Virus record (IMG/VR): IMGVR_UViG_3300037424_002033
Location: 1-56,226 of that record
Source of the DNA: a virus
Taxonomy: Duplodnaviria > Caudoviricetes
Strand: one strand, 5' to 3'
DNA length: 56,226 nt
The position numbers were made by a program, and so were the translations under genes. Of this stretch, positions 1-56,226 are shown in pieces. The first letter of the stretch is position 1. The number at the start of each line of letters is the position of its first letter. The notes beneath the pieces are model-generated. The model was given only the letters and a program-made list of their open reading frames with translations, did no database searches and was not told the origin of the DNA.

Positions 1-198
1 TCGAGTGCCCCGCCTGTTTAGGATTCTGGACTGGCGCGATCATCGGCGGCGCCATCGACGGCGGCTGGGGCATCGCGATCGGCGCGCTCTACACCGCTGG
101 CAGTAACTACATTCTCTCGAAGCTCACACGTCTGATCGACTAGTTCCCGGAGGAAGTCATGTCCGCAGCCGTCACCCCGATGTTCAAGTTGAAGATGT
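1..198 (+). repeat. Terminal direct repeat, copy 1 (circular overlap)
   Basis: Matches 56029-56226 except at positions 128, 134 and 145. Confidence 0.97.
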
Positions 199-1884: not shown

Positions 1885-2187
1885 ATGGAAAAGCTCCTCG
1901 AAATGTTCAAGGCGGAGATGACGATGCGGAAAATCCCCGAGCCCATGATCGATCTCGTGGTGAACCTCGTCGCCGGAGTGGCAGACGGAATCCGCGACCT
2001 CGTCGAATCGACGGTGGAGGCGAACCGGGCTGCCACCCTCATGCACTACGCGCAGGCGGCGGTGCTCTTCAACGATTTGGAGTTCACGACTGACCTCGCG
2101 GCCGAGTGCCTCGAATCGGCGCGCGAGATCAGCGGCGCACAGAAGGCCGAGGATGGGCCGGCGGCGGAGCCGCCGGCTTCCGCCTGA
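1885..2187 (+). CDS. Acidic helical hypothetical protein
   Basis: 100 aa ORF, AAGGA SD, typical codon usage. Confidence 0.7.
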   Translation: MEKLLEMFKAEMTMRKIPEPMIDLVVNLVAGVADGIRDLVESTVEANRAATLMHYAQAAVLFNDLEFTTDLAAECLESAREISGAQKAEDGPAAEPPASA

Positions 2188-2198
2188 GAAGTCAACCG

Positions 2199-2232
2199 GC
2201 GCGATCTACTGAGAATTCTCAGTAGATCGCGC
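2199..2232. repeat. Perfect 34-bp palindrome GCGCGATCTACTGAGAATTCTCAGTAGATCGCGC
   Basis: Checked base by base around the centre 2215/2216; no spacer. Confidence 0.95.
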
Positions 2233-3221: not shown

Positions 3222-3428
3222 ATGGCGAAGCTCGATCTCGACGTGGACGCGCCCGACAAGGTGGCCCCAGTGCTCGCGAGCGCCGCGCAGCAATTCTACG
3301 ACTCCGCGAGCGAGCTTCAGTCCGCGTGGCAGGAGAAGGCAGCCGGGCGGCCGTGGGAGATCATCGCGAAGGAACTCGAAGCCGCCGCGTCGCGCATCAA
3401 GAAGAAGCTCGCAACGATCGGTTTCTAG
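3222..3428 (+). CDS. Small helical hypothetical protein
   Basis: Coupled to upstream stop; typical codon usage. Confidence 0.7.
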   Translation: MAKLDLDVDAPDKVAPVLASAAQQFYDSASELQSAWQEKAAGRPWEIIAKELEAAASRIKKKLATIGF

Positions 3429-3468
3429 CGCTCGGAAGAAGTCCCCGCGGTTCATGTAGGAGAAGATC

Positions 3469-3816
3469 ATGTTCCGAGGCTACTCGAAGAAGAACCGGAA
3501 GCTCCGCCGCAAGAAGCGGAGCGCGAAGCGGTTCGGCGGCTTCGCCGGCACGAAGGCGATGCACCGCGCCGATGCCGCGCAGTACGCAAAGGTGGCTCGG
3601 AAAGCGGCGCAGGACGCGCGGAGCGCTGCGCGGTCTGGTAACTGCGAGCGCGCCGTTCACTACTTCGGCGTCGCCGCGTTCTACGGGGGCTTCGCCACTG
3701 GCAACCGGCGGTGGGCAGTAGGTGGCCGGCGGGAAGGAACTCGCGGTGGAAGCCGGATGGGATCCCGCATCGCTGCGTTGCAACGCACCGTCTCGAAGGC
3801 GTGCAAGATCCGCTGA
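3469..3816 (+). CDS. Basic Arg/Lys-rich putative core protein (paralog of 11457-11798)
   Basis: KKNRKLRRKKRSAKRFGG leader; conserved Cys pair. Confidence 0.7.
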   Translation: MFRGYSKKNRKLRRKKRSAKRFGGFAGTKAMHRADAAQYAKVARKAAQDARSAARSGNCERAVHYFGVAAFYGGFATGNRRWAVGGRREGTRGGSRMGSRIAALQRTVSKACKIR

Positions 3817-3875
3817 CAAGTTACGGCTCGCGGTGAGCCGACGATCGCCGTGAAGGGAAACGAGAGGAGTTCACA

Positions 3876-4076
3876 ATGCAGATCGCGGTGCTCGAAGGAT
3901 ACCGCGTCCCTGGAAGGAGCACGAAGATGGCACGTCGTCGTCGCCGCCGCAGCACTCGCAGGGTCGGTGGGAAGCGCGCTCTCCGCAAGCGCATGAAGGT
4001 GTGCGCGCGGAAGCACAAGGTCACGTCCAAGGGCTTCTGGGCGTGCGTCCGCAAGGGCCGCAGCCGCCGCCGGTAG
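3876..4076 (+). CDS. Protamine-like Arg-rich DNA-condensing protein
   Basis: MARRRRRRSTRR...C...C...RSRRR; AGGAG SD; alternative start at 3927. Confidence 0.7.
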   Translation: MQIAVLEGYRVPGRSTKMARRRRRRSTRRVGGKRALRKRMKVCARKHKVTSKGFWACVRKGRSRRR

Positions 4077-4091
4077 CACCTCGTCCGCATC

Positions 4092-4112
4092 GCCGGTAGC
4101 CGCCGCGCCGGT
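4092..4112 (+). promoter_or_regulatory. Conserved RNA hairpin motif, copy 1 (core GGTAGCCGCCGCGCC)
   Basis: CCGG-TAGCCGCCGCG-CCGG, upstream of 4155. Confidence 0.7.
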
Positions 4113-4154
4113 TCCACGCTGAGAGCGCCGTGAAGGCGCAAAGGAGTCGATCAA

Positions 4155-4685
4155 ATGGCAAGGCACCGCCGCCGCCGCCGGCACCGCCGTTTCGGAAGCT
4201 ACGTCACGACGTCGCTCGGCAGCCTCAAGCAGTTCAACCCCATGGGCCGTACGGTCCGCTCGACCGACGTGCTTGTCGGCGCCGGTCTCGGCGTCGCCGC
4301 TTCCACCTTCGTCAAGATGGGCATCGAGAAGGTCAACGAGATGCTCGGTGGGAAGATCCCGCTCTTCGTCATGCAGCAAGCGGGGCCGCTCTCCACCTTC
4401 CTCGCTGGCGTTCTGCTCTACCTCGGGCAGAAGAAGAGCGCTCGGGGCACCGGGCACTTCGTCGGCGCCTCCGCCGTCGCCGCCTCCGCCGTCTTCTGGG
4501 GCCTCCTGAAGCAGTACGGGCCCACGAAGTCGGACGGGACGCCGATGTTCTCGGACTACGTCCGGGTCCCGTCGCTCGGTCTGCTCACCGCCGATGCCGG
4601 CGGCCGGTCGCCGTTCGGTCTGCTCACCGCCGATGCCCCGATGTCGGGCTTCGGCGACGAGTTAGACATCTTCAACGCTGCCTGA
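4155..4685 (+). CDS. Putative major membrane/core protein: Arg-rich N-terminus, about 3 Gly/Ala TM helices, repeated C-terminal GLLTADA
   Basis: MARHRRRRRHRRFGS; hydrophobic helices; 23-bp internal repeat at 4576-4598 and 4615-4637; directly upstream of the putative MCP. Confidence 0.75.
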   Translation: MARHRRRRRHRRFGSYVTTSLGSLKQFNPMGRTVRSTDVLVGAGLGVAASTFVKMGIEKVNEMLGGKIPLFVMQQAGPLSTFLAGVLLYLGQKKSARGTGHFVGASAVAASAVFWGLLKQYGPTKSDGTPMFSDYVRVPSLGLLTADAGGRSPFGLLTADAPMSGFGDELDIFNAA

Positions 4686-4714
4686 CCGGCTTCGCCGGCC
4701 AGGAGCGGGCCTTA

Positions 4715-4737
4715 GCTCGGTAGCCGCCGCGCCGAGT
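4715..4737 (+). promoter_or_regulatory. Conserved RNA hairpin motif, copy 2
   Basis: CTCGG-TAGCCGCCGCG-CCGAG, upstream of 4796. Confidence 0.7.
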
Positions 4738-4795
4738 GCAGTTGCAGGAAACGCAGTTCACAGCGCGTAACGCGCGAACGAAAGAGGAGCACCAA

Positions 4796-5503
4796 ATGCC
4801 GAGCTTCATCTACCCCGCAGCGCAGCGCCCGAGCACGGCCGTGGCCGGTCTCGGCGATCAGCACGATGACAACGTCTACTCCGCGATCGTGGTCGCCCAC
4901 GGCGGAGTGGGCACGCAGAAGGCGTTCGTCGCCGGCCAGGGCTCGCCGATCCCGGCCCTCACCGGCACCGCCATCCCCGTCGCGAACGTGCCCAACACGT
5001 ACGTGAACTACACCCCGCTGACCACGGTCATCGAGCAGTCCGGCCAGTTGGGCAACTCGATCGGCGATGCGGAGATCCGCGCCATCGGCGTGACCTTCGA
5101 CCTCGCCGCGTACTCCTACGCGGCGGCGACGCCGCGCGTGTTCGGCGCGACGCCGTTCGAGATCGCCGACGTGCTCGGCAAGTGCCGCATGGAGGTGAAG
5201 GTCTCGAACAAGCGCCGGATCCAGGGTCCGGTGTGGTCGTACCCGAACCTCGGCGGCATGGCCGGCGGGCTCGCGACGACCGCGAACGCCGCGACGATCG
5301 GCGCCGTGAACAACGGCCCGTTTCCCACGGGTCGCCGGCTGAAGAGCCCGATCCTCATCGCTCGCAACGACGTGCTCGTCGCCGAGTTCACCGCGGACGC
5401 CGCCCTGGCGTTCTCGGACACCTCGTTCGCGACCACGCACGCCGGGCAGGCCACCCTCGTGTGGATCAACCTGATCGGCACGCTCCGCAGCGACGTGAGA
5501 TGA
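4796..5503 (+). CDS. Putative major capsid protein, single jelly-roll type (235 aa)
   Basis: Beta-strand-rich; very strong codon bias; GAGGAG SD; flanked by RNA structures; shares L.SPI.I and terminal I.L.G..R patterns with the downstream paralogs; fold is inferred. Confidence 0.6.
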   Translation: MPSFIYPAAQRPSTAVAGLGDQHDDNVYSAIVVAHGGVGTQKAFVAGQGSPIPALTGTAIPVANVPNTYVNYTPLTTVIEQSGQLGNSIGDAEIRAIGVTFDLAAYSYAAATPRVFGATPFEIADVLGKCRMEVKVSNKRRIQGPVWSYPNLGGMAGGLATTANAATIGAVNNGPFPTGRRLKSPILIARNDVLVAEFTADAALAFSDTSFATTHAGQATLVWINLIGTLRSDVR

Positions 5504-5506
5504 CAA

Positions 5507-5575
5507 GCCCGTAGAACGGGCCTCGTATTACCGTACTCCGTGGTAGGGTGTCCCATTCAGGCCCCTACCACGGAG
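5507..5575 (+). other. Structured intergenic RNA after the putative MCP (two hairpins)
   Basis: GCCCGT/ACGGGC (5507-5521) and a 13-bp perfect stem CTCCGTGGTAGGG/CCCTACCACGGAG (5536-5575); no U tail. Confidence 0.7.
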
Positions 5576-5598
5576 AACAGGATGAAAGAAGCAGACAA

Positions 5599-5617
5599 GA
5601 GGTAGCCGCCGCGCCTC
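5599..5617 (+). promoter_or_regulatory. Conserved RNA hairpin motif, copy 3, abutting the SD of 5629
   Basis: GAGG-TAGCCGCCGCG-CCTC followed by GGAGGTAGG. Confidence 0.7.
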
Positions 5618-5628
5618 GGAGGTAGGAA

Positions 5629-6642
5629 ATGAAGATCGTTCCGTCGCACTACGTTCCTGCGATCCCGGCGAGGTTCGCGCCGGCTCCGCCCCCTACCAAG
5701 CGCGCCGTGTTTCCTCCATCGCCAGTGTGGGGCGGCGGGCCCGGCCGTCCCGTGCTGCTTTACGACTCGGTGACGTTGCAGGCCGGTGCAGAGCAGCCGC
5801 TGAAGAACCGCGCCTTTCAGAACACGTTCAACGGATTCGTCGAGCTTCACTCGGCGATCTTCGCGGCCGAGCAGTTGACCGCTAACGTCTCCACGGCGCG
5901 TGCAACCTCCATCGCGACGACGGCCGTTCAGATCGGAGTGCGTCGCGCGGCGTCGAACAAGGTGCTCCGCATCACTGACGGCTTCATCCCGATGTGGATG
6001 CTCGCGCCGTCGGACAACCGACTTGCCTCCGCTGCCGGAGCGAATGGGCTCACGGCGCTGATCGACTGGAAGTTCGCGTCGCCGATCGTTCTCGGACCGA
6101 AGGATCAGATCGAAGTCTCAGTGCGCCACCTCTCGTACTTCACGAATAACACGCTGGCGCATGTTGCCTTCGGCGGAGAGGTCGTACCGAGATCCACGGC
6201 TGCTAGGCGGCTGCCGTACGCAACGGTATGGTCTGGGCACAACTTCGCGTATGCCGAGGATGGCTCCGACACGTCCGGTCCTGCCGCGCTATCGAACGAT
6301 CTGGAAAACAGGAAGTTGCACGTTGAGCGCATCATCGGGCGCTTCGTGACAGCGGCGCTTCAAGGAGCGAACACAATCGTCAACGACCTCGTCGATGGCT
6401 CGAATCAAATGGATCGGGCCACGCTTCGGATGCACCTTCAGCAAACCCCGATCATTCGGAGCTTCGCGAAGTGGATCACCGTGTTCGGAGCCAACGCGGC
6501 CCTCGAATGTGACTTCGACATGCTCGTGAACGACTTCATCACCGTCACCGTGGCGCATCCGCCGGGGCCGACACTCGCGACGCCGTTCACGTCGTTCACG
6601 GGGCAGCCCTTCGTTTCCATCGTCGGTTCCCGGGAGGAGTGA
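5629..6642 (+). CDS. Putative minor capsid protein, two tandem beta-sandwich domains (paralog 1)
   Basis: FQNTFN...ITDGFIP...FASPIVL...RRLPY...LSNDL...VSIVGSRE. Confidence 0.65.
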   Translation: MKIVPSHYVPAIPARFAPAPPPTKRAVFPPSPVWGGGPGRPVLLYDSVTLQAGAEQPLKNRAFQNTFNGFVELHSAIFAAEQLTANVSTARATSIATTAVQIGVRRAASNKVLRITDGFIPMWMLAPSDNRLASAAGANGLTALIDWKFASPIVLGPKDQIEVSVRHLSYFTNNTLAHVAFGGEVVPRSTAARRLPYATVWSGHNFAYAEDGSDTSGPAALSNDLENRKLHVERIIGRFVTAALQGANTIVNDLVDGSNQMDRATLRMHLQQTPIIRSFAKWITVFGANAALECDFDMLVNDFITVTVAHPPGPTLATPFTSFTGQPFVSIVGSREE

Positions 6643-6648
6643 AAAGCT

Positions 6649-7536
6649 ATGGGCTCCGAAGTCATCCTGTTTGGAACCACACCGCAACTGACGATCACGG
6701 CCGGCGTGCCCGGCCCCGATCAGCGGTTTCCCACCGAGGAACTCGTCAATCGCTTCAATAACGAGGCGATCGAGATCACCGAGTTGATCTTCGAGCTTCA
6801 CTCTTCGATCACCTCTTCCGGCAACGTCGGCGCCGCCGACTCTGTTAGGTCGGCACAGATTTCCCTTTCGATCGGGCGCTACTTGATCACTGACCGCAGC
6901 CCATTCGATACGATCGCGATCATTCGCGAGGCTACGGTCGGGAACGTCGTGGCGCTCGCCGCCGCAGCGTTGGACACCTTGCAGGTTCGTCGGTGGATCC
7001 TCGCTCGGCCCCTCATGGTTCACCCGCTCGAATCCTTCTCCGGCCTGTTGTCGTACGATGGCGCTGCCATCGCAGGCATCGCTACTGGTACCGTCGATCT
7101 TACCGTGGTGGCCCGCGGTCGGCGCGGCGGAAAGATCGATCGGACGCGATGCGTTCCCTACGCCTCCGGTTATCTTTTCAGAACGCCAACCGCGCCGGCT
7201 CCGAACCTCGTCTTTCAGAACACGTTCAACTCTCCACTCTTCATCCGGTCGATCAACACGACGCTCGGCTCGTCCATTCAGACGGCTCCCGGGCAGACTC
7301 CGCCGGTGATCACAGCACCGGGCGGGCTGGCGAACGTGGTGCGCCGGGACATGGTCCCCCAACTCACGACTCCGTGGGGACTCGCCGGGCAAAGAAAGTC
7401 GTTGGAGGTCGCGCATCAACTGAACCCGCGGGAGTTCTACCAGATCACTACGGCGCTCCGCCTCGACGATGCCATTCCATCGGCGCTCGTTGCCCCCGCG
7501 ATCACCATCTCCGGTTACCGTGAGGAGTCGCGATGA
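6649..7536 (+). CDS. Putative minor capsid protein, two tandem beta-sandwich domains (paralog 2)
   Basis: LVNRFN...ITDRSP...LARPLMV...RCVPY...FQNTFNSP...ITISGYRE. Confidence 0.65.
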   Translation: MGSEVILFGTTPQLTITAGVPGPDQRFPTEELVNRFNNEAIEITELIFELHSSITSSGNVGAADSVRSAQISLSIGRYLITDRSPFDTIAIIREATVGNVVALAAAALDTLQVRRWILARPLMVHPLESFSGLLSYDGAAIAGIATGTVDLTVVARGRRGGKIDRTRCVPYASGYLFRTPTAPAPNLVFQNTFNSPLFIRSINTTLGSSIQTAPGQTPPVITAPGGLANVVRRDMVPQLTTPWGLAGQRKSLEVAHQLNPREFYQITTALRLDDAIPSALVAPAITISGYREESR

Positions 7537-8450
7537 TCGCCACGCTGTCACCTCAACCGATCGTCCTGTCTGCCGCTCCGGTGCCGTACCTGACCACCGA
7601 CGCGGTGGGCACGGAGAAGAGCGCAAACCAGGGGGTTTGGAACTCGGAACCCACCGGGGTTCTCATTTCCGACATCTTCATCCAAGGGAACGCCGCGCTC
7701 GCTGAAGCGGGGGGCGGGAACGCGAACACCGGCGTCGGAATCCTCCTTCGATACCGTGGCGAGCCGATCACGAACGGCTACCTGCCGTTTTCGTCCGTGT
7801 GCTCGGTGCTGAACGCTGCCTTCGAGGATCCGGGTGGAGTCGTGGGTGGCATCACGATCCTTCGACTCGCAAAGCCGTTCTACTTGGAACCTGGCGGGAT
7901 CATCGACGTTGCGTACAGTAGCATCATGTTCCAGGCGAACGTCACGCTGCGCGCGTTCGCCGTCGGGATCCAGGCGTTGACCCCACCGAAGGAGCGATGG
8001 CTTCCGTACCTGACGTCGTACCTCGGTCCGACCTACATCGGAACTTCCAACGCAGTGATCGAGAATCAGTCGGTTCCGACCGATCTCGGTAATCCGTTCG
8101 GTGATCCGATCTTCGTCGATCAGTTGATCGGACGGGTTTACGTTGGCATCGATCCAAACAATGGAGTGGCCCCGACCAATTTCCGCGACACCGGCTCCCC
8201 GAGCGCGGCGTACGCATTCAGAACTCGACTGACCGACCACAAGGGCGCCGCGTGGATCCCCGTTCCCACGCCGATCCCGCTGGCGTTCGATACCGTGACC
8301 CGTGCGTGGCCGGTGAAAACGAACATGGACGCCAAGGGATTCCTCACGGCCGATCTCTCCGGTGTAGCGACGTTCACGAGCGTCACACCCGGATTCGTTC
8401 TGTACGCTCGGGCTGGCATCGGTCTCGTCGGCTATCGGAGGATCGGATGA
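7533..8450 (+). CDS. Putative minor capsid protein, two tandem beta-sandwich domains (paralog 3)
   Basis: VWNSEP...ITNGYLP...LAKPFYL...RWLPY...LGNPFGDP...IGLVGYRR. Confidence 0.65.
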   Translation: MIATLSPQPIVLSAAPVPYLTTDAVGTEKSANQGVWNSEPTGVLISDIFIQGNAALAEAGGGNANTGVGILLRYRGEPITNGYLPFSSVCSVLNAAFEDPGGVVGGITILRLAKPFYLEPGGIIDVAYSSIMFQANVTLRAFAVGIQALTPPKERWLPYLTSYLGPTYIGTSNAVIENQSVPTDLGNPFGDPIFVDQLIGRVYVGIDPNNGVAPTNFRDTGSPSAAYAFRTRLTDHKGAAWIPVPTPIPLAFDTVTRAWPVKTNMDAKGFLTADLSGVATFTSVTPGFVLYARAGIGLVGYRRIG

Positions 8451-15790: not shown

Positions 15791-16263
15791 TCGTACGCGA
15801 TGACCGTGGAGTGCCGAGTGGCTACGGCGAGGTCCAATTCGAGGGCCTCTTCGACTCGATCAAGCGGGCGGCTCGCGCCGTAGGCAATGCTGTGTCGGCG
15901 GTGATCCCTGACAAGGTGGAAGGCATCCTCAAGGCTGGCGCGGCCACCGCAGCCGTGGGGCTCACCGGCGGCGCCGCCCTGCTCATCCCGGGCGTTCGCC
16001 AGCCAGCGATCCAGGGGTACAAGATGGGGGCCGCCATCGGCGCCGGCATCGTGGGCTCTCAGGCGCTCGCGAAGGGGGTCAGCGCCATCGGGACGACCAC
16101 GACCGGCCCCGCCTCGGGGGACCCCGCGGCTGGGGGAGCCGCGCCGGCCAGCCGGAGTGCCGCGCCCATCGTGGCCGGCGCAGGGGCCGGATTCCTCGCG
16201 CTCGGGCCCCTGGGGGCTGTCATCGGCGGTGTGGCAGGGTACGCTCTGAGTCGGAGGGCATGA
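15787..16263 (+). CDS. Gly/Ala-rich virion membrane protein with C-terminal glycine zipper
   Basis: SGYGE...FEGLF; ends GAGFLALGPLGAVIGGVAGY. Confidence 0.75.
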   Translation: MIVRDDRGVPSGYGEVQFEGLFDSIKRAARAVGNAVSAVIPDKVEGILKAGAATAAVGLTGGAALLIPGVRQPAIQGYKMGAAIGAGIVGSQALAKGVSAIGTTTTGPASGDPAAGGAAPASRSAAPIVAGAGAGFLALGPLGAVIGGVAGYALSRRA

Positions 16264-16266
16264 CCC

Positions 16267-17823
16267 GTGGCGATGATCGGTGGCGGCGGTTGGGGACTGA
16301 AGATAACGGCGCCCGTCGTGGCGGTGCCCGTGGTCACCGTCCCGACTCCACCGGTGAGCACCGCGCCTACGAAGGGCATCGCCCCTGGTATTACTCCGCC
16401 GATCATGGCGGCTCCGGCTCCGATCGTTTCGGAGCCACCGAAGCAGATCGCGCCGGTGATCGTCGTCCCGACTCCGACCGTTCCAACGCCTCCGGCCGCC
16501 CCGGAGCCGCCTCCGCCGGTGGCATGGCCGTCTCCGATCGTTCAGCCGCCGAAGCAGATCGCGCCGGTGATCCCCGTTCCGCCTCCGCCGGCAGCGCCGG
16601 CCCCGCCGCCGGTTGCCATCCCCAGCCCGCCGATTGCGACCCCGCCGGTCGTGATCCCGCCGGTGATCTGGCCCCCGCCTCCCGCGCCGGAGCCGGAGCC
16701 GCCAAAGCAGATCGCTCCGGTGATCCCGATTCCTACCCCTACCGTTCCCACGCCGCCCATCATCATCGAGCCGCCACCCGTGGCATGGCCGTCTCCGATG
16801 CTGCCAGCGCCGGAGCCTCCCAAGCAGATCGCGCCGATCGTCACCCTGCCAGTGATCACCGTGCCGACTCCGCCCGTCGTGGATCCTGTGCCGCCGCCCG
16901 TAGCGTGGCCCTCTCCTCCCATGATCACGATTCCGGTTCAGCCGCCGGTCACGATCCCGGTTCAGCCGCCGGTGGCCATCGTGACCCCTCCGGTGGCAAC
17001 GCAGCCGATCATGCCGTCGCCGAAGGAGCCGGAGCCGGAGCCGATCTCGAAGATCAACCCGGTGATCCCGATTCCAGCGCCGCCACCGATCTTCGCGCCT
17101 CCTCCGGAACTCATCCCCACGCCGACGGTTCCGACGCCGCCCTCGTTCCCGGTCATCGTGACGCAACCTCTCCCGATCATCGTAGCGCCGTCGCCTCCGC
17201 CGTTCGTGCCTGCCCCTCCGATGCCGCTTCCTCCGGCGATCGTCGAGTCGCCAGTAGTTGCCACGCCGCCGATTTCACTTTCGCCGATCGAGACAGCAAT
17301 GAAGGAGTCTGTGATGCGTCAAGAACTGCCCGTCGAGATGCCGCAGGCGCCGACTCCGGAAAAGCTTCTCACGATCATGCCGATCCAGCAGGCGCCGTCT
17401 CCGTTCAAGACGTCGATCTCCTCGAACGACGTGATCCCGTCGTCGCCGGTTGCAACCCAGCCCGCGACTCCGGCCCCAGAGGTCGTCGCCACGCCGATCA
17501 CGATCATGCCGGTGAACCCGCCCGGCGGCCAACCCTTCGCGCCCAAGGCGCCCATTTACGGCACGCCGGAGTGGTGGGCGGCTAGCGGCTCCGGCTCGGC
17601 CACGATCCCCACCTCGACCGTGCCCACGCCTCCGGCGACCCAGCCGAACGTGACCGTCTCGCCGGTGGAGATGGCCGGCGGGCAAGCGGTGGCGGCCCCG
17701 GCCGCGGGCGGCATGGGTGCTGTGCTCGCGCTCGGCGCTGGCGGCTTCCTCGTTGGGGGCCCCGTCGGAGCGATGGTCGGGCTCGCCACCGGGTTCTTCC
17801 TCGGAAAGAAGGCGGCGCCATGA
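16267..17823 (+). CDS. Very Pro-rich, extensin-like repetitive protein with C-terminal glycine-zipper anchor
   Basis: Repeats PPKQIAP (x4) and PPPVAWPSP (x3); C-terminal GAGGFLVGGPVGAMVG. Confidence 0.8.
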   Translation: MAMIGGGGWGLKITAPVVAVPVVTVPTPPVSTAPTKGIAPGITPPIMAAPAPIVSEPPKQIAPVIVVPTPTVPTPPAAPEPPPPVAWPSPIVQPPKQIAPVIPVPPPPAAPAPPPVAIPSPPIATPPVVIPPVIWPPPPAPEPEPPKQIAPVIPIPTPTVPTPPIIIEPPPVAWPSPMLPAPEPPKQIAPIVTLPVITVPTPPVVDPVPPPVAWPSPPMITIPVQPPVTIPVQPPVAIVTPPVATQPIMPSPKEPEPEPISKINPVIPIPAPPPIFAPPPELIPTPTVPTPPSFPVIVTQPLPIIVAPSPPPFVPAPPMPLPPAIVESPVVATPPISLSPIETAMKESVMRQELPVEMPQAPTPEKLLTIMPIQQAPSPFKTSISSNDVIPSSPVATQPATPAPEVVATPITIMPVNPPGGQPFAPKAPIYGTPEWWAASGSGSATIPTSTVPTPPATQPNVTVSPVEMAGGQAVAAPAAGGMGAVLALGAGGFLVGGPVGAMVGLATGFFLGKKAAP

Positions 17824-36539: not shown

Positions 36540-39500
36540 TTACACCTCTTTCCAGTTCGTGCCGATCTTCGACTCGCCTGCGAAGCGCACCGGCAGACCC
36601 CACTTCGCCCCGTCCACCGTCATCGCTTCCTCTTTCATCCGTGCAACCTTGTTCGCTCGGCAGCCGCAGCCGGGCGGGCAGTATCCGAACTCGGCGCCGT
36701 CGCCGATGTACCGCGCGTGATCCGCCGGCACCTCGCTCACCAGCGAGTCGTGCCCTTGCTGCACGAGGCGCGCGCCGTACTTCGGAAGCTCGCGCATGAT
36801 GATCTCGGTGGCGAGGTGGACAAGCGCAGAGCCGCCCGACTGCGCCTTGTAGTTGGCAATCTCGTTCGGCTCCTCGCCGTCGAGGAAGTCGCGGCGCAGC
36901 CCGAAGATCGGCTCGGCGAGGTAGTGCTGCCGGCGGAACTCGACGAGGTCAGCTTCCCACCATCGTTCGATCTCCGGGTTTCTAGCGAGCCACTTCGTGT
37001 GGAAAGCGATCGTCTCGCGCAGCGCGAGATCGGGGTAGAGCAACCTTCCCGTCTTCTTGTCTTCCGACGAGGTCAGCACCGCGTGGACCGTCTCCGCTCC
37101 GGCGCGGTACGCGGAGGCGTAAGTGAATTCCTTCACGAACCGGCGCAGATCCTTCCGTCCATCCTTGCTTGCCTGCTCGAACTCGTTGCCGAAGAAGTCG
37201 TGGCAGAGAACGAGATGCGGATCGGTGCCGGCGTTGAAGGCGTCGAGGTAGACGCGCGCGCCAGAAAGCGCGGCGACCATGCGAAGCTCTAGCTGTGCCT
37301 CGTCACAGCCGACGAAGACGTATCCCTCTTCAGGGATGATCATGTCGCGGAGGTCGTCGGGGAAGTTCTGACACTGGCCGGTGACGTGGATTTCGCCACC
37401 ACGCCGCACAAGCAGGTAAGACGACGGCACCGAAATGCAGTAAACAGGCTCGTCGGCTTCCGCGATCTTCTTCTCAACGTTCGTCGTCAGCGAGTAGTCG
37501 CGATCCGTCACGTCGATCTGATAGTTCGGTCGCCCTGACTTCGGCACGTAGACTCGGAAGTGGGCACGCTGTCCGGTGAGTGCAACCGCCGCTTGGAACA
37601 CCTCGGCGTTGCGCTCGATCGACGACGAGTAGCAGTTACGCCGCGTCTCCGATCCGTCCCAGAGGTAGCACTCTGCCACGAACTCGCGGATCTGCATGCT
37701 TGTCATCGCGAAGAGCATCGGCCAGCGGAACACCTTCTCCACTCCGATCAGCACACGGATCTTCTCCGTTAACCAGCAATCACCGATGCGAATTCGAGTA
37801 GTCTCGGCTCCTCGCTTGAACGGTGTGTCTCGAATCGTCTTTGCACCACGAGAAAATGGAACGCCTAGCCGCGTGAGAGCCCCGACGAGACGGTCGATCT
37901 TTCGCGGCCGAGCGAACCCGAAGGTGATGCCACCACGATCCCACGATCCATCCGCTTGCGTGGCACACAGCACGATCATCTCGTCAGAGTCGATGCCTAG
38001 GCCCCGCCCTTCGATGTAGCGGCCAGCGTGGATCTGCTCCCAATCCGACGGGTACTCTCGGGCGGTGAATACGTGAAGCTGCCCGGTCTTCCGATGGCGA
38101 AGCACGCAGCGATGATCCGGCGTGAGTCGTAGATCGATGTGCTGATTCCGCATCGTCACCATCGCCGCCGCTGTCTCAGTGTAGTACGCAGTCGGATCCA
38201 CGAAGTGGATGGTTCCGGCACTCCACTCCGCAACCTTCACGCCGCGCTTCAACTCCCCGATCAGAACCCAGCCATCCGGCGTGAGCACCGACGTGGCCGC
38301 ATCGAAACAATTTGGCTTCGACGACGACAAGCGCCACCCGACGGTTCCGTGCGGCAAATAATCTCCATGCACGCGCCCGTCGGGGAGCACGAGCCCCGGC
38401 TTCGAGCTAGACTTCAGCCGCTTCGTGCGCTCCTCGTCGCCCTCCTCTGCATCGAACGCCATCTCGGCGTCGGTGAGCGGAGCGCCCCACGGCCGGAGCT
38501 TCACCACGTAGGTGCCGCGCTTCTTGGTGAAGACCCGGAAGCGGCGGATCGCGCGAACGATTTCTTTCTTAGGAGCGTCGAGATCGTAGCTAGGCGAGAG
38601 GAACGCGCGCAGCGTGTCGTCGCCGGTGGAGGGATCGCCCCCCTCGGTGGGATCGCCCCAGGGTTGGAGGCCCCACGTATCGAAGAAGAGATCGCGGAGT
38701 TGCAGCGGCGAGTTGGGATTCAAGGTCCGAAGCCCGGTGAGATCGCGGATCACCTTCAGCTTCTCGCGGGCGTCGCGGCGAAGCTGCACGTCCCACTCCT
38801 CGCGGCGCCGCTGATCGACGCGCATCCCGTTCGTATGAAGGTCTACGCAGACGGACTGCACGAACGGCCAGAAGTGCGCGGCTCGCTCCTGCCCCCGCGC
38901 GACGACGGCACGGGCGAGTTGCGGAACGGTGATCGCGGTGATCGCGCAGTCGCGAGCGTTATAGACTTTCATCGAGGCGTCGTCGGTGGGAGCGGCGGCG
39001 AACTCGTCTTTCCACGAGGGGGCGTCGGTGTAGATCGAGCCGGCGTAACCAAGCCGGTGCGGAAGCTCCGGCTCCGCCATCTTGTGAAGCCCGATGCCGT
39101 CGCGGTGCGGTGCCACCATGACCTTGAACCAGTGACGGATCACTTGCACGTCGTAATAACCTTCGTTCCACCCCGTCTTCAGCCACCGTGGCGATACGAA
39201 GAACGCTTTCAACACCTCGATCACCGGCTTCAGGTGGCTCGGCGGCGAGAAGATCGCGTTCCGATCGAACGAGTAGAAGGGGATCCCGACGGCGCGCTTG
39301 CCGTCCGCCGAGGCGAGCCCGACGTAGGTCAGCCGATCGTACAGCGGATCGAAATGCTCGTTGCCGGCGGCGTCGGAGAAGCCGGGGAGCGTCTCGACGT
39401 CATAGGTGATCGGCGACCGCTCCGCTTCGAGCCACGCGGTGAGTTCCGCGGCGGTCGGGTTGTAGAGAATTTCGGGCTCCGTCCAGGCGAGGCCGGAGCC

Positions 39501-40097
39501 GAACCAGCGGAAGGCCCGACCGAGGTCAGAGGTGAAGGCCCGGGTCCACCTCCGGGCGCGCAGCACGAAGGCAGGGTGCAGCGTGGGCAGCACGCGCAAG
39601 CTCCGCGCGTCTCCGAAGGGGACCTCGCGGGGACCGCCGCGGAGTTCGAGCACGGAGCCGGAGACGCCCACGGCGCCGAGCGCGGTGCCGCCCAGCGTGA
39701 TCACGTTGCCGTTGCTCTCACTCAAATCCCGGCGCAGCCGGGGCGCGCAGCACTCGACGGCCGCCTTCTGCGCCGGCTCACCGCGCTTCACCCTGGCGCG
39801 GTTCTCCTTCGCGTGCTCGGCGCGCGCCTGGGTCATGGAGAAGCCCGGCAGCGGGCACAGCACAGAGTTCGTGATCGAGACGTCGCGGCGCCGGATGCCG
39901 ACGGCGGCGAGGGCCCGCTCTAGCTCGATGCCAGAGGGGCCAACGAAGGGCACGCCGGCCTTGACCTCACCCTCGCCGGGGCCCTCGCCGACGAGGATCG
40001 CGCGAGCGCCCGGCCGAAGCTCGGGAGGAACGGGCACGCGCCCAGCGAGCGGGCACTCGGCGCAGCGCGCGCCACGCTCTCTGGGATCGTAGCTCAC
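36540..40097 (-). CDS. polA: DNA polymerase family A with N-terminal family-4 uracil-DNA glycosylase domain, 3'-5' exonuclease and an intein
   Basis: C..C.L, GEGPG..E...PFVG.SG, HPAF (UDG); DVET, YNARD (exo); DEAQLELR, K...Y...Y, HDS (polymerase motifs A, B, C). Confidence 0.93.
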   Translation of the reverse strand: MSYDPRERGARCAECPLAGRVPVPPELRPGARAILVGEGPGEGEVKAGVPFVGPSGIELERALAAVGIRRRDVSITNSVLCPLPGFSMTQARAEHAKENRARVKRGEPAQKAAVECCAPRLRRDLSESNGNVITLGGTALGAVGVSGSVLELRGGPREVPFGDARSLRVLPTLHPAFVLRARRWTRAFTSDLGRAFRWFGSGLAWTEPEILYNPTAAELTAWLEAERSPITYDVETLPGFSDAAGNEHFDPLYDRLTYVGLASADGKRAVGIPFYSFDRNAIFSPPSHLKPVIEVLKAFFVSPRWLKTGWNEGYYDVQVIRHWFKVMVAPHRDGIGLHKMAEPELPHRLGYAGSIYTDAPSWKDEFAAAPTDDASMKVYNARDCAITAITVPQLARAVVARGQERAAHFWPFVQSVCVDLHTNGMRVDQRRREEWDVQLRRDAREKLKVIRDLTGLRTLNPNSPLQLRDLFFDTWGLQPWGDPTEGGDPSTGDDTLRAFLSPSYDLDAPKKEIVRAIRRFRVFTKKRGTYVVKLRPWGAPLTDAEMAFDAEEGDEERTKRLKSSSKPGLVLPDGRVHGDYLPHGTVGWRLSSSKPNCFDAATSVLTPDGWVLIGELKRGVKVAEWSAGTIHFVDPTAYYTETAAAMVTMRNQHIDLRLTPDHRCVLRHRKTGQLHVFTAREYPSDWEQIHAGRYIEGRGLGIDSDEMIVLCATQADGSWDRGGITFGFARPRKIDRLVGALTRLGVPFSRGAKTIRDTPFKRGAETTRIRIGDCWLTEKIRVLIGVEKVFRWPMLFAMTSMQIREFVAECYLWDGSETRRNCYSSSIERNAEVFQAAVALTGQRAHFRVYVPKSGRPNYQIDVTDRDYSLTTNVEKKIAEADEPVYCISVPSSYLLVRRGGEIHVTGQCQNFPDDLRDMIIPEEGYVFVGCDEAQLELRMVAALSGARVYLDAFNAGTDPHLVLCHDFFGNEFEQASKDGRKDLRRFVKEFTYASAYRAGAETVHAVLTSSEDKKTGRLLYPDLALRETIAFHTKWLARNPEIERWWEADLVEFRRQHYLAEPIFGLRRDFLDGEEPNEIANYKAQSGGSALVHLATEIIMRELPKYGARLVQQGHDSLVSEVPADHARYIGDGAEFGYCPPGCGCRANKVARMKEEAMTVDGAKWGLPVRFAGESKIGTNWKEV
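37374..38309 (-). mobile_element. Intein (312 aa) with LAGLIDADG-like endonuclease region, inside PolA
   Basis: RLSSSKPN/CFDAATSVLT...TPDH...QADGS...WDGS...VYCISVP...HVTGQ/CQNFP; removing it restores the PN.QN motif. Confidence 0.9.
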
Positions 40098-55893: not shown

Positions 55894-56171
55894 TCGAACT
55901 CTTCATCTACTCGATCGCCGCGTTCGGCTTCGCCTACTGTGCCGGTCACAGCGTCATCTCGCGTGGGCTTCGCTCGTGGATCATCGGCAAGTATGACTAC
56001 GGGCTGCGCTTCTGGTTCGTCACCCTCATCGAGTGCCCCGCCTGTTTAGGATTCTGGACTGGCGCGATCATCGGCGGCGCCATCGACGGCGGCTGGGGCA
56101 TCGCGATCGGCGCGCTCTACACCGCTGGCAGTAACTACATTCTCTCGAAGCTCACCCGTCTCATCGACTAG
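55890..56171 (+). CDS. Membrane protein with CxxC (DUF1360-like)
   Basis: I...LR...LIECPACLGFW.G followed by TM helices. Confidence 0.75.
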   Translation: MIELFIYSIAAFGFAYCAGHSVISRGLRSWIIGKYDYGLRFWFVTLIECPACLGFWTGAIIGGAIDGGWGIAIGALYTAGSNYILSKLTRLID

Positions 56172-56226
56172 TCCCCGGAGGAAGTCATGTCCGCAGCCGT
56201 CACCCCGATGTTCAAGTTGAAGATGT
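56029..56226 (+). repeat. Terminal direct repeat, copy 2
   Basis: Matches 1-198 with 3 mismatches. Confidence 0.97.

What the first reader, a model, noticed from the sequence alone, without database searches (positions are those of the whole stretch)
4092..5617. Three copies of a covarying bulged-A RNA hairpin upstream of the core structural genes
Seen: the invariant GGTAGCCGCCGCGCC occurs at 4095, 4719 and 5601, each intergenic and 5' of genes 4155, 4796 and 5629. The flanks differ but stay complementary (CC/GG, CTC/GAG, GA/TC). It folds as stem, U.G pair, bulged A, two GC pairs and a CGCC loop. Copy 3 abuts the SD. Known: compensatory changes indicate RNA structure, and bulged-A hairpins act as protein-binding operators (MS2 coat operator). 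Inference: a translational operator, processing site or antitermination signal that tunes capsid and membrane protein stoichiometry.
Basis: partly seen in the sequence, partly recalled or inferred. Interest (0 to 1): 0.75.

Follow-up and report, generated by a model that had tools for sequence, protein, structure and literature searches.

The report
Conserved mRNA hairpin before phage capsid genes
A small, strictly conserved RNA hairpin with a bulged A sits in front of the capsid and membrane-protein genes of an uncultured membrane-type phage and its relatives, right against the ribosome-binding site of the major capsid gene, so it most likely controls how much of these proteins is made.

Summary
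GGTAGCCGCCGCGCC occurs exactly three times (4095, 4719, 5601), only on the + strand and only between genes. No exact match appeared in 100 shuffles.

The window is a 56-kb high-GC virus record. Gene 5629-6642 encodes a double jelly-roll major capsid protein with a PRD1 P3-like fold.

The same hairpin is present in nine related metagenomic viruses, giving 14 copies in 10 genomes. All lie on the sense strand at the same three intergenic positions.
- The lower stem covaries: 7 of 9 pairs show double changes, and 0 of 500 shuffles reach the observed score.
- The U·G pair, the bulged A and the first top G-C pair are invariant; the second top pair flips once, with compensation, and the loop is mostly YGCC.
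- A model built from the window's three copies alone ranks nine relatives' copies as its top nine hits.
- The capsid-gene copy ends 6-12 nt before the start codon in 7 of 7 genomes and abuts or contains the Shine-Dalgarno.

Rfam has no match. My best reading is a protein-recognised translational operator on late mRNA. That function is inferred, because no RNA data exist. Rivals are a processing or stability site, structure-only tuning, and antitermination.

This is a new RNA motif of a known kind.

The parts
4092..4112 (+). Hairpin copy a. Lower stem G4092.U4112, C-G, C-G, G-C, G-C; U4097.G4107; bulged A4098; G4099-C4106 and C4100-G4105; loop CGCC 4101-4104. It starts 16 nt after the stop of the small Arg-rich gene and ends 42 nt before the ATG at 4155.
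   Evidence: -10.6 kcal/mol; 34 bits, E 4.8e-8
4715..4737 (+). Hairpin copy b. It has the same 15-nt core with the lower stem GCUCGG/CCGAGU, and ends 58 nt before the ATG at 4796.
   Evidence: -11.2 kcal/mol; 32.5 bits
5599..5617 (+). Hairpin copy c. It has the same core with the lower stem GAGG/CCUC. Its 3' end touches the Shine-Dalgarno of the capsid gene.
   Evidence: -8.2 kcal/mol; 30.2 bits
5618..5622 (+). Shine-Dalgarno GGAGG of the major capsid gene. It lies immediately 3' of hairpin c, with a 6-nt spacer to the ATG at 5629.
3876..4076 (+). Small 66-aa Arg-rich protein (MQIAVLEGY...MARRRRRRR...), conserved in relatives. It is one candidate hairpin-binding protein; this is inference only.
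   Evidence: tblastn hits in L120, L123, L127, L129; no Pfam or PHROG family (the 49-aa form was scanned)
4155..4685 (+). 176-aa protein with an Arg-rich N-terminus (MARHRRRRRHRR) followed by hydrophobic segments. It is a putative virion membrane protein and lies downstream of hairpin a.
   Evidence: homologues in 12 of 13 loci; no Pfam or PHROG family
4796..5503 (+). 235-aa protein, the most conserved of the cluster (56-77% identity in close relatives), downstream of hairpin b. Its fold is unresolved. Weak resemblance to single jelly-roll capsid proteins is a hint only.
   Evidence: 64 clusters; pLDDT 60; best E 5e-3
5629..6642 (+). Double jelly-roll major capsid protein (337 aa), downstream of hairpin c.
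   Evidence: 74 relatives; pLDDT 83.6, pTM 0.82; PRD1/PR772 P3 at E about 1e-9; also STIV, PM2, FLiP, PBCV-1
5507..5575 (+). Two further hairpins between the 235-aa gene and hairpin c: GCCCG-UAGAA-CGGGC (5507-5521) and a 13-bp stem (5536-5548 with 5563-5575). They could protect a 3' end or act as a partial terminator; this is inferred.

Best explanation
The element is a cis-acting hairpin on the sense (mRNA) strand of the late structural operon of an uncultured double jelly-roll-capsid phage.

Architecture. A 4-6 bp lower stem of free sequence carries an almost fixed top: a U.G pair, one bulged A, two G-C pairs (the second reversed in one copy) and, in 12 of 14 copies, a YGCC tetraloop.

Proposed mechanism. 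I read it as a recognition site for a sequence-specific RNA-binding factor, most likely virus-encoded. Its main job would be translational control of the major capsid gene. There the hairpin ends 6-12 nt before the start codon and abuts or contains the Shine-Dalgarno, so a folded or protein-clamped hairpin competes with the 30S subunit. The extra copies, before the Arg-rich membrane protein gene and in some genomes before the 235-aa gene, would place those genes under the same factor and so couple the amounts of virion components.

Shown: the hairpin exists, it is conserved with covariation in relatives, it is strand- and position-specific, and it is tied to the capsid gene's ribosome-binding site.

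Inferred: that a protein binds it, which protein, and whether binding represses or activates translation.

Confidence split: about 0.9 that it is a selected sense-strand RNA hairpin, and about 0.45 that it acts as a protein-bound translational operator.
For: 1. Real and non-random. There are three exact copies against 0 of 100 shuffles with any exact match. With a covariance model and filters off, the window holds only these three strong hits on either strand; the next best is 14.9 bits.

2. Conserved in relatives. A sequence-only pattern (GTAGC, N4-5, GCG) gave 25 matches in the window plus 13 related loci. Eleven have >=4 consecutive flanking pairs, and all 11 are on the + strand at the three syntenic intergenic positions. 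The other 14 have <=2 pairs. A structure-aware scan added L125_c, L127_a and L127_c, for 14 copies in 10 genomes.

3. Covariation. In total, 86.5% of cells are paired, 7 of 9 pairs have changes on both sides, and the covariation score is 0.538 against 0.122 for shuffles (0 of 500 reach it). Sliding the 3' partner by 1-3 columns gives only 0.089-0.151.

4. Independent detection. A model built from the window's three copies alone placed nine relatives' copies as its top nine hits in 49,131 nt searched on both strands (E 4e-5 to 0.028).

5. RNA rather than DNA. All 14 of 14 copies lie on the gene strand. The U.G pair is invariant (14 of 14), and further G.U pairs occur in the lower stem. These would be A.C mismatches on the other strand.

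6. Tie to translation. In 7 of 7 copies upstream of the capsid gene, the 3' end of the stem is 6-12 nt from the start codon. In L125 and L127 the 3' arm is GGAGG itself. In L131 a 361-aa ORF is inserted upstream, yet the hairpin stays beside the capsid SD. This copy is present in 7 of 8 loci that include the region, against 5 of 9 for position a and 2 of 13 for position b.

7. Sequence-specific recognition. Columns T11, A12, G13, C17, C20 and G21 are invariant and four more are >=90% conserved, while the flanks diverge. Proteins of the same genomes are only 35-77% identical.

8. Copies within a genome share their variant. The window's three cores are identical, L120's two share the UGGCC loop, and L124's two share the flipped C-G closing pair. 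This is expected if all copies answer to one genome-encoded factor, although gene conversion would give the same pattern.

9. Precedent. The T4/RB69 gp43 operators are hairpins with identical tops plus sequence overlapping the RBS (PMC3014915, passages read).
Against: - No transcript, binding or reporter data exist, and no RNA-binding domain was found. Forty window ORFs were scanned in Pfam.
- Copies a and b end 27-59 nt upstream of their start codons, outside a simple SD-occlusion geometry.
- The capsid protein should be the most abundant product, so a repressing hairpin at its SD is not obviously advantageous.
- More distant relatives (L134, L130) carry different, unbulged hairpins at the same positions. 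A generic hairpin function could therefore be ancestral, with the specific top a lineage feature.
- Three of the 14 copies were found with a scan that required lower-stem pairing. The covariation count is partly circular for those rows; address this.
- Related sequences can exceed shuffles without any structure, as the tool itself cautions.
- Thermodynamic z-scores are ordinary.
Confidence: 0.45

Rival explanations
1. RNA processing or stability site. The hairpins would mark where the polycistronic late mRNA is cut by a host or phage endoribonuclease, or where exonucleases stop. That would give gene segments with different half-lives and so different protein yields.
For: - All copies are intergenic within one co-oriented gene block.
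- Position-a copies start 14-24 nt after the upstream stop codon in 5 of 5 genomes.
- The c intergenic region also carries large hairpins that look like 3'-end protectors.
- Distant relatives keep some hairpin at the same places even without the motif.
- An invariant top could equally be a nuclease recognition site.
- Phage mRNA processing at intergenic sites near SDs is known, for example T4 RegB (PMC3014915, passages read). T7 RNase III sites are a further example (recalled).
Against: - The hairpin has 7-9 bp with a bulge, too short for classical RNase III substrates (recalled).
- The constant 6-12 nt distance to the capsid start, and the SD lying inside the stem in L125 and L127, are not required for a processing site.
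- No RNA ends could be examined.
Confidence: 0.25
2. Structure-only tuning of translation. The hairpin would lower or set ribosome access to the SD by itself, with no trans-acting factor.
For: The c copies abut or sequester the SD in 7 of 7 genomes. Stability is moderate, -6.7 to -11.2 kcal/mol, a range that can modulate initiation. L134 has an unrelated perfect hairpin abutting the SD at the same place.
Against: - It does not explain the near-invariance of the U.G pair, the bulged A, the top pairs and the loop across 10 genomes while the lower stem changes freely.
- It does not explain why the same top is used at positions a and b, which are 27-59 nt from their starts.
Confidence: 0.12
3. A nut-like processive antitermination site. 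An Arg-rich phage protein would bind the nascent hairpin and modify RNA polymerase so that it reads through the hairpin terminators inside the structural operon.
For: - There are several small hairpins on one transcript.
- An Arg-rich small protein gene lies directly upstream of copy a.
- Strong terminator-like hairpins lie between the 235-aa and capsid genes.
Against: - No boxA-like companion sequence was looked for or seen.
- The best-conserved copy (c) lies downstream of the terminator-like hairpins, against the SD, rather than promoter-proximal.
- The loop is not GNRA-like (the boxB comparison is recalled).
- The pattern scan found no canonical intrinsic terminator on the + strand in 3300-6000.
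Confidence: 0.08
4. A DNA-level element, such as a late promoter or operator, a packaging or replication signal, or a REP-like mobile palindrome.
For: There is a conserved 15-nt core upstream of three genes. Copies within a genome are identical, as in repeated DNA elements.
Against: - Lower-stem positions change freely but stay complementary, which a dimer-binding operator or promoter does not require.
- G.U pairs, including one that is invariant, are mismatches in DNA.
- Occurrence is strictly on one strand.
- The SD directly after or inside the element means the transcript must start upstream of it.
- No sigma-70-like promoter match was found in 3300-6000.
- Of 227 other IMG/VR contigs carrying the core, all have a single copy and none encodes relatives of the four window proteins. 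It is therefore not a widespread repeat in that collection.
Confidence: 0.05

Closest known systems
MS2/R17 coat-protein translational operator (ssRNA phages)
   Same: Both are hairpins of about 19-23 nt with a single bulged A two base pairs below a tetraloop. Both sit at the ribosome-binding site of the regulated gene and act within a virus that must balance structural against other products. (The MS2 features are recalled, not tested here.)
   Different: - The loop here is YGCC (also UACU and UGGCC), not the A-containing MS2 loop.
- A conserved U.G pair lies under the bulge.
- The virus is dsDNA with a double jelly-roll capsid.
- There are two or three copies per genome.
- No Levivirus-type coat protein was found among 40 ORFs scanned.
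- The binding partner is unknown.
T4/RB69 gp43 (DNA polymerase) translational operator
   Same: Both belong to dsDNA phages. In both, the top of the hairpin is identical between related phages while the base differs, and the operator includes sequence overlapping the RBS (PMC3014915, passages read).
   Different: - The T4 operator is single-copy and autoregulates a replication enzyme.
- Its loop is UAAC.
- No bulged A is described in the passages read.
- Its hairpin lies about 40 nt upstream of the start codon.
- Here the targets are virion genes, and the regulator is unidentified.
Lambda N / boxB (nut) antitermination hairpins
   Same: Both are small hairpins present in more than one copy on phage transcripts. 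An Arg-rich peptide is encoded next to one copy. (The lambda details are recalled.)
   Different: - boxB has a 5-bp stem with a GNRA-like pentaloop and no bulge.
- It has a boxA partner.
- It is promoter-proximal and not joined to an SD.
T7 RNase III and T4 RegB intergenic mRNA processing sites
   Same: Both are intergenic cis elements in phage polycistronic mRNAs, some at translation initiation regions (RegB: PMC3014915; T7: recalled).
   Different: RegB targets unstructured GGAG, and T7 sites are much longer irregular duplexes. Here the element is a 7-9 bp bulged hairpin with a fixed top.
Rfam families
   Same: None.
   Different: There were 0 matches at gathering score over the whole window. 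Only chance-level matches (E 2.5-9.4) to unrelated families appeared in 3800-5700, and none represents the hairpins: two (H19_3 at 4023-4118 and the antisense Rev44 at 4048-4128) merely span copy a.

Membership tests
MS2-type coat protein operator hairpin | Single bulged purine two base pairs below a four-base loop | tested here: met
   A bulged A, then two G-C pairs, then a 4-nt loop in 12 of 14 copies; the two L120 copies have a 5-nt loop.
MS2-type coat protein operator hairpin | Loop with conserved adenines (the ANYA-type consensus is recalled, not from a call) | tested here: not met
   The loops are CGCC, UGCC, UGGCC and UACU. None has the recalled A positions.
MS2-type coat protein operator hairpin | Cognate Levivirus-type coat protein encoded by the same genome | tested here: not met
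   No such Pfam family was found in 40 window ORFs scanned. The capsid protein is a double jelly-roll. The ORF set was not exhaustive.
Lambda-type nut site (boxB) | Short unbulged stem with a GNRA-like pentaloop (recalled) | tested here: not met
   The stem is bulged and the loops are YGCC or UACU tetraloops.
Lambda-type nut site (boxB) | Location between a promoter and the terminators to be overridden, with a boxA element | not tested
   Promoters are unknown: there were 0 sigma-70-like matches in 3300-6000. boxA was not searched for.
Translational operator (functional class) | cis RNA element overlapping or adjoining the ribosome-binding site of the regulated gene | tested here: met
   Copy c ends 6-12 nt before the start codon in 7 of 7 genomes. 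The SD abuts the 3' arm or lies inside it.
Translational operator (functional class) | Specific binding of a repressor or activator protein, with an effect on translation | not testable with these tools
   No RNA-protein prediction or experimental data are available. No RNA runs were listed.
Structured RNA supported by covariation | Compensatory base changes in homologous sequences above controls | tested here: met
   7 of 9 pairs have double changes, and 0 of 500 shuffles reach the score. Slid registers give 0.089-0.151 against 0.538.
Any Rfam 15 family | Score at or above the family's gathering threshold | tested here: not met
   There were 0 matches over the whole window.

The most novel reading that the evidence does not exclude
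A dsDNA, membrane-containing, double jelly-roll-capsid phage lineage uses an MS2-like logic. An Arg-rich virion protein would bind a bulged-A hairpin repeated on the late mRNA, feeding back on translation of the capsid, membrane and 235-aa proteins to set virion stoichiometry. The candidate proteins are the 66-aa protein at 3876-4076 and the Arg-rich N-terminus of the membrane protein at 4155-4685. The RNA top and the peptide would co-evolve genome by genome.
Probability: 0.2. Interest if true: 0.75.

Novelty: new member of a known kind. Interest (0 to 1): 0.6.

Why it matters
Regulation of late gene expression in tailless, membrane-containing double jelly-roll phages is barely known, and this lineage has no cultured member and no annotated proteins. 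None of the 10 structural-cluster ORFs tested has a Pfam family, and only one has a marginal PHROG match.

A short RNA element that is conserved, covarying and welded to the capsid gene's ribosome-binding site gives a concrete, testable handle on how such viruses balance virion components. It is also a compact sequence signature: a covariance model of it picked out nine of the eleven copies in related contigs without using any protein information.

If a small Arg-rich peptide proves to be the partner, the pair would be a new, very small RNA-peptide recognition module. If not, it is one more regulatory or processing hairpin of a familiar type.

Tried and rejected
- Rfam, at gathering score and at E<=10: nothing relevant.
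- Pfam and PHROGs on the neighbouring genes: no family, apart from one marginal PHROG match of unknown function (phrog_38412, E 0.0049) for ORF 448-1845.
- Protein-pattern scans with the capsid protein alone or with close alignments: IMG/VR, metagenomes, GenBank phages by tblastn and prokaryote genomes. None found relatives. A 22-sequence alignment was too diverse for the tool.
- Relatives came only from alignments A3, A4 and A5.
- Exact-core scans of IMG/VR gave 116 and 111 single-copy contigs. None of the 227 encodes relatives, so I used them as chance controls.
- The genome search 'relatives' is not available for a virus record. Whole records could be searched only for L120 and L134; L123 and L129 are not held. 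The weak hits there are not copies: G002 at 16.2 bits on the opposite strand, read, and the coding-region hit at L120 2965, read.
- Weak covariance-model hits were read and rejected: window 2158-2189(-) at 14.9 bits is a different, unbulged hairpin.
- Sequencing runs: no RNA holder was listed. This is no evidence on expression.
- Laying DNA contigs of four runs gave only short, low-depth fragments. One variant contig (X3) covers most of hairpin b, starting one base inside it (from 4716), with no listed change in the hairpin and several changes downstream. This is too thin to use.
- Structure of the 235-aa protein: pLDDT 60 and the best Foldseek E is 5e-3. I make no fold assignment.
- Terminator and promoter pattern scan of 3300-6000: nothing on the + strand.
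- Literature: three searches returned no paper on an RNA hairpin of this kind in double jelly-roll phages, judged from listings and abstracts only. Supplements were not consulted, as they are closed.
- Complex prediction was not used, because it takes no RNA.
Full report
**1. The observation**

The 15-mer GGTAGCCGCCGCGCC is present exactly at 4095, 4719 and 5601. All three copies are on the + strand, and no further copy appears at up to two mismatches on either strand. No exact match occurred in any of 100 dinucleotide-preserving shuffles. The mismatch-tolerant count is not unusual on its own: 10 of 100 shuffles reached three matches.

The flanks differ between copies but pair in each:

| Copy | Lower stem |
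|---|---|
| a | GCCGG / CCGGU |
| b | GCUCGG / CCGAGU |
| c | GAGG / CCUC |

I used chance occurrences of the same core in unrelated IMG/VR contigs as a control. Only 16 of 116 have two or more Watson-Crick flank pairs, and 6 of 111 do for the TGCC-loop variant.

In arbitrary 56-nt windows, copy b takes another fold and the z-scores are ordinary. Thermodynamics is therefore not the argument.

**2. Context**

The window is an IMG/VR virus record of 56,226 nt at about 67% GC. It has a 198-nt direct repeat at its two ends, 98% identical.

The hairpins occupy three consecutive intergenic regions of a co-oriented gene block:

| Gene | Product | Hairpin that follows |
|---|---|---|
| 3876-4076 | 66-aa Arg-rich protein; the start was corrected from the reading | a |
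| 4155-4685 | Protein with an Arg-rich N-terminus and hydrophobic segments | b |
| 4796-5503 | 235-aa protein | c (after two larger hairpins) |
| 5629-6642 | 337-aa protein | none |

None of these four proteins has a Pfam or PHROG family.

The 337-aa protein has 74 relatives in the representative library. Folded with 22 of them, it gives a confident all-beta model (pLDDT 83.6, pTM 0.82). The best PDB matches are the double jelly-roll major capsid proteins of PRD1/PR772 (E about 1e-9), followed by STIV, PM2, FLiP and PBCV-1. "Core structural gene" is therefore right for this gene.

The 235-aa protein is the most conserved of the cluster, with 64 clusters, most at 56-77% identity. Its model is poor (pLDDT 60), and its Foldseek matches are only weak hints of single jelly-roll capsid proteins.

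Elsewhere the record encodes:
- a family A DNA polymerase fused to a UDG domain, an SNF2 helicase, an AAA_25 ATPase and a SAM-dependent methyltransferase domain
- an SLT transglycosylase
- a DNA methylase (N6_N4_Mtase) and a PD-(D/E)XK nuclease

**3. Relatives**

Protein-based scans found one syntenic IMG/VR relative (L120), a distant one (L134) and eleven metagenome contigs (L122-L132). None was found in GenBank phages or prokaryote genomes.

A pattern that constrains only the top of the hairpin (GTAGC, 4-5 nt, GCG) gave 25 matches in the window plus 13 loci, counting both strands.
- Eleven have at least four consecutive flanking pairs. All eleven are on the gene strand at the same three intergenic positions.
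- The other 14 have at most two flanking pairs.

A scan that required pairing but freed the closing pairs added L125_c, L127_a and L127_c. The total is 14 copies in 10 genomes.

**4. Structure evidence**

On the 14-sequence alignment, the proposed helix gives these figures:
- It has 86.5% of cells paired.
- Seven of nine pairs show changes on both sides.
- The covariation score is 0.538 against 0.122 for shuffles, and 0 of 500 shuffles reach it.
- Registers slid by 1-3 columns score only 0.089-0.151.

The changes include flips of the two closing pairs (G-C to C-G in both L124 copies; GG/CC to UC/GA in L125 and L127) and of one top pair (C-G to G-C in L127_a).

The U.G pair, the bulged A and the first top G-C pair never vary. 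The loop is CGCC, UGCC, UGGCC or UACU.

Three rows were selected with a pairing requirement, so I checked the result in two non-circular ways.
- The bimodal outcome, described in section 3.
- A covariance model built from the window's three copies only. It ranked nine relatives' copies as its nine best hits in 49,131 nt, both strands, filters off (E 4e-5 to 0.028). L127_c came 11th and L125_c 31st. The 10th hit is a coding-region chance match.

The 14-sequence model finds only the three known copies in the whole window; the next best hit is 14.9 bits and is a different hairpin.

**5. RNA or DNA?**

All 14 copies lie on the coding strand. One G.U pair is invariant and others occur in the lower stem; on the opposite strand these would be A.C mismatches. 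The lower stem changes freely while staying complementary, which a promoter or a dimer-binding operator does not demand. The SD follows or lies within the element, so the transcript must begin upstream of it. I take a sense-strand RNA hairpin as established on comparative grounds (about 0.9).

**6. Position and function**

| Position | Genes flanked | Loci with the motif, of those that include the region |
|---|---|---|
| c | upstream of the capsid gene | 7 of 8 (absent in distant L134) |
| a | Arg-rich gene to membrane protein gene | 5 of 9 |
| b | membrane protein gene to 235-aa gene | 2 of 13 |

In all seven c copies, the 3' end of the stem lies 6-12 nt before the start codon.
- The SD follows at once in the window and L131.
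- The SD overlaps the last stem bases in L120, L123 and L124.
- The SD is the 3' arm itself (GGAGG) in L125 and L127.

In L131 a 361-aa ORF is inserted between the 235-aa gene and the capsid gene, yet the hairpin stays with the capsid SD. This geometry places the hairpin inside the region a 30S subunit must occupy (general knowledge). The hairpin therefore very probably affects initiation.

The fixed top argues for sequence-specific recognition by a factor. It is shared by copies at positions that have nothing to do with an SD, and it is shared in the same variant by the copies of one genome: three of three in the window, two of two in L120, and two of two in L124 including the flipped closing pair. 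Gene conversion could also homogenise copies within a genome.

The T4/RB69 gp43 operators are a precedent for "identical top, variable base, RBS overlap" in dsDNA phages (PMC3014915, passages read). The MS2 operator (recalled) shares the bulged-A, two-pair, tetraloop architecture but not the loop sequence.

The candidate partners are the two Arg-rich proteins encoded beside copy a. The membrane protein's N-terminus is strongly Arg-rich in the motif-bearing genomes, and weaker in L129 and L134, which lack the motif. That correlation is small and confounded by phylogeny, so it is a lead only.

**7. What speaks against the operator reading**

- There is no expression, binding or reporter evidence.
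- No RNA-binding domain was detected.
- Copies a and b are 27-59 nt from their starts.
- The capsid protein needs high output.
- The distant relatives L130 and L134 have other, unbulged hairpins at the same places. A generic hairpin role (stability, processing or access tuning) may therefore be ancestral.

My weights are:

| Reading | Weight |
|---|---|
| Protein-recognised translational operator | 0.45 |
| Processing or stability site | 0.25 |
| Structure-only tuning | 0.12 |
| Antitermination | 0.08 |
| DNA-level element | 0.05 |

**8. Novelty**

Rfam 15 has no match. Three full-text searches returned no description of such an element in double jelly-roll phages, judged from listings and abstracts only. 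The lineage itself is unannotated.

The element is a new RNA motif of a familiar class: a cis-regulatory mRNA hairpin at an RBS. The comparative support is unusually clean for so short a structure, but the mechanism is still open.

Noticed in passing
window 1-198 and 56029-56226: The two ends of the record share a 198-nt direct repeat at 98% identity. The contig may therefore be a complete or nearly complete genome with terminal redundancy, although IMG/VR classes it as linear and CheckV estimates 75% completeness.
   Followed up: no
window 5629-6642 and 7533-8450; L120 8015-8398: The double jelly-roll capsid protein has a weak paralogue two genes downstream: 26% identity over 220 aa, E 1e-5. 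The same arrangement is seen in L120. A 56-kb double jelly-roll phage carrying family A DNA polymerase fused to UDG (36540-40097) appears to belong to an undescribed lineage.
   Followed up: partly
L120 5811-5865; L122 about 1438-1493; L123 about 4218-4262; L124 about 1196-1256; L126 about 1222-1270; L127 about 2350-2408: A second conserved structure lies between the 235-aa gene and hairpin c in relatives. It is a long GC-rich hairpin framed by GYUGACAG ... GAUCAGCGG. The window lacks this frame and instead has a 13-bp stem at 5536-5575.
   Followed up: no
window 4738-4790; L130 2424-2475; L132 about 870-905: The intergenic region before the 235-aa gene contains repeated (C)GCAGU words, about seven in L130. 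It also has a small conserved hairpin, GCGCG-UAA-CGCGC in the window and in L132. This could be another protein-binding or promoter-related signal.
   Followed up: no
window 2199-2232: A perfect 15-bp inverted repeat (GCGCGATCTACTGAG aat/att CTCAGTAGATCGCGC) lies in the gap between the left-end genes and the start of the + strand block. A GC-rich hairpin follows it at 2158-2189. It might be a bidirectional terminator or an operator.
   Followed up: no
window 16394-17075: Four to five diverged tandem copies of a 76-85-nt, proline-rich coding repeat lie inside ORF 16260-17585 (families D2 and D3). The ORF has no Pfam family.
   Followed up: no
window 3876-4076 and 4155-4200; L120, L122, L123, L127, L130, L132: Two adjacent genes begin with, or contain, runs of 7-9 arginines (MARRRRRRR, MARHRRRRRHRR), and this is conserved across relatives. 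They may be DNA-condensing or membrane-anchored core proteins of the virion, independent of any RNA role.
   Followed up: partly
L129 4257-4285 and 4458-4583: In L129 the gene order differs. A homologue of the small Arg-rich protein follows the 235-aa gene, and no capsid homologue lies within the locus. A degenerate hairpin (CAGG-UA-G-CGAG-C-G-CCUG, with only one top pair) sits in between.
   Followed up: no
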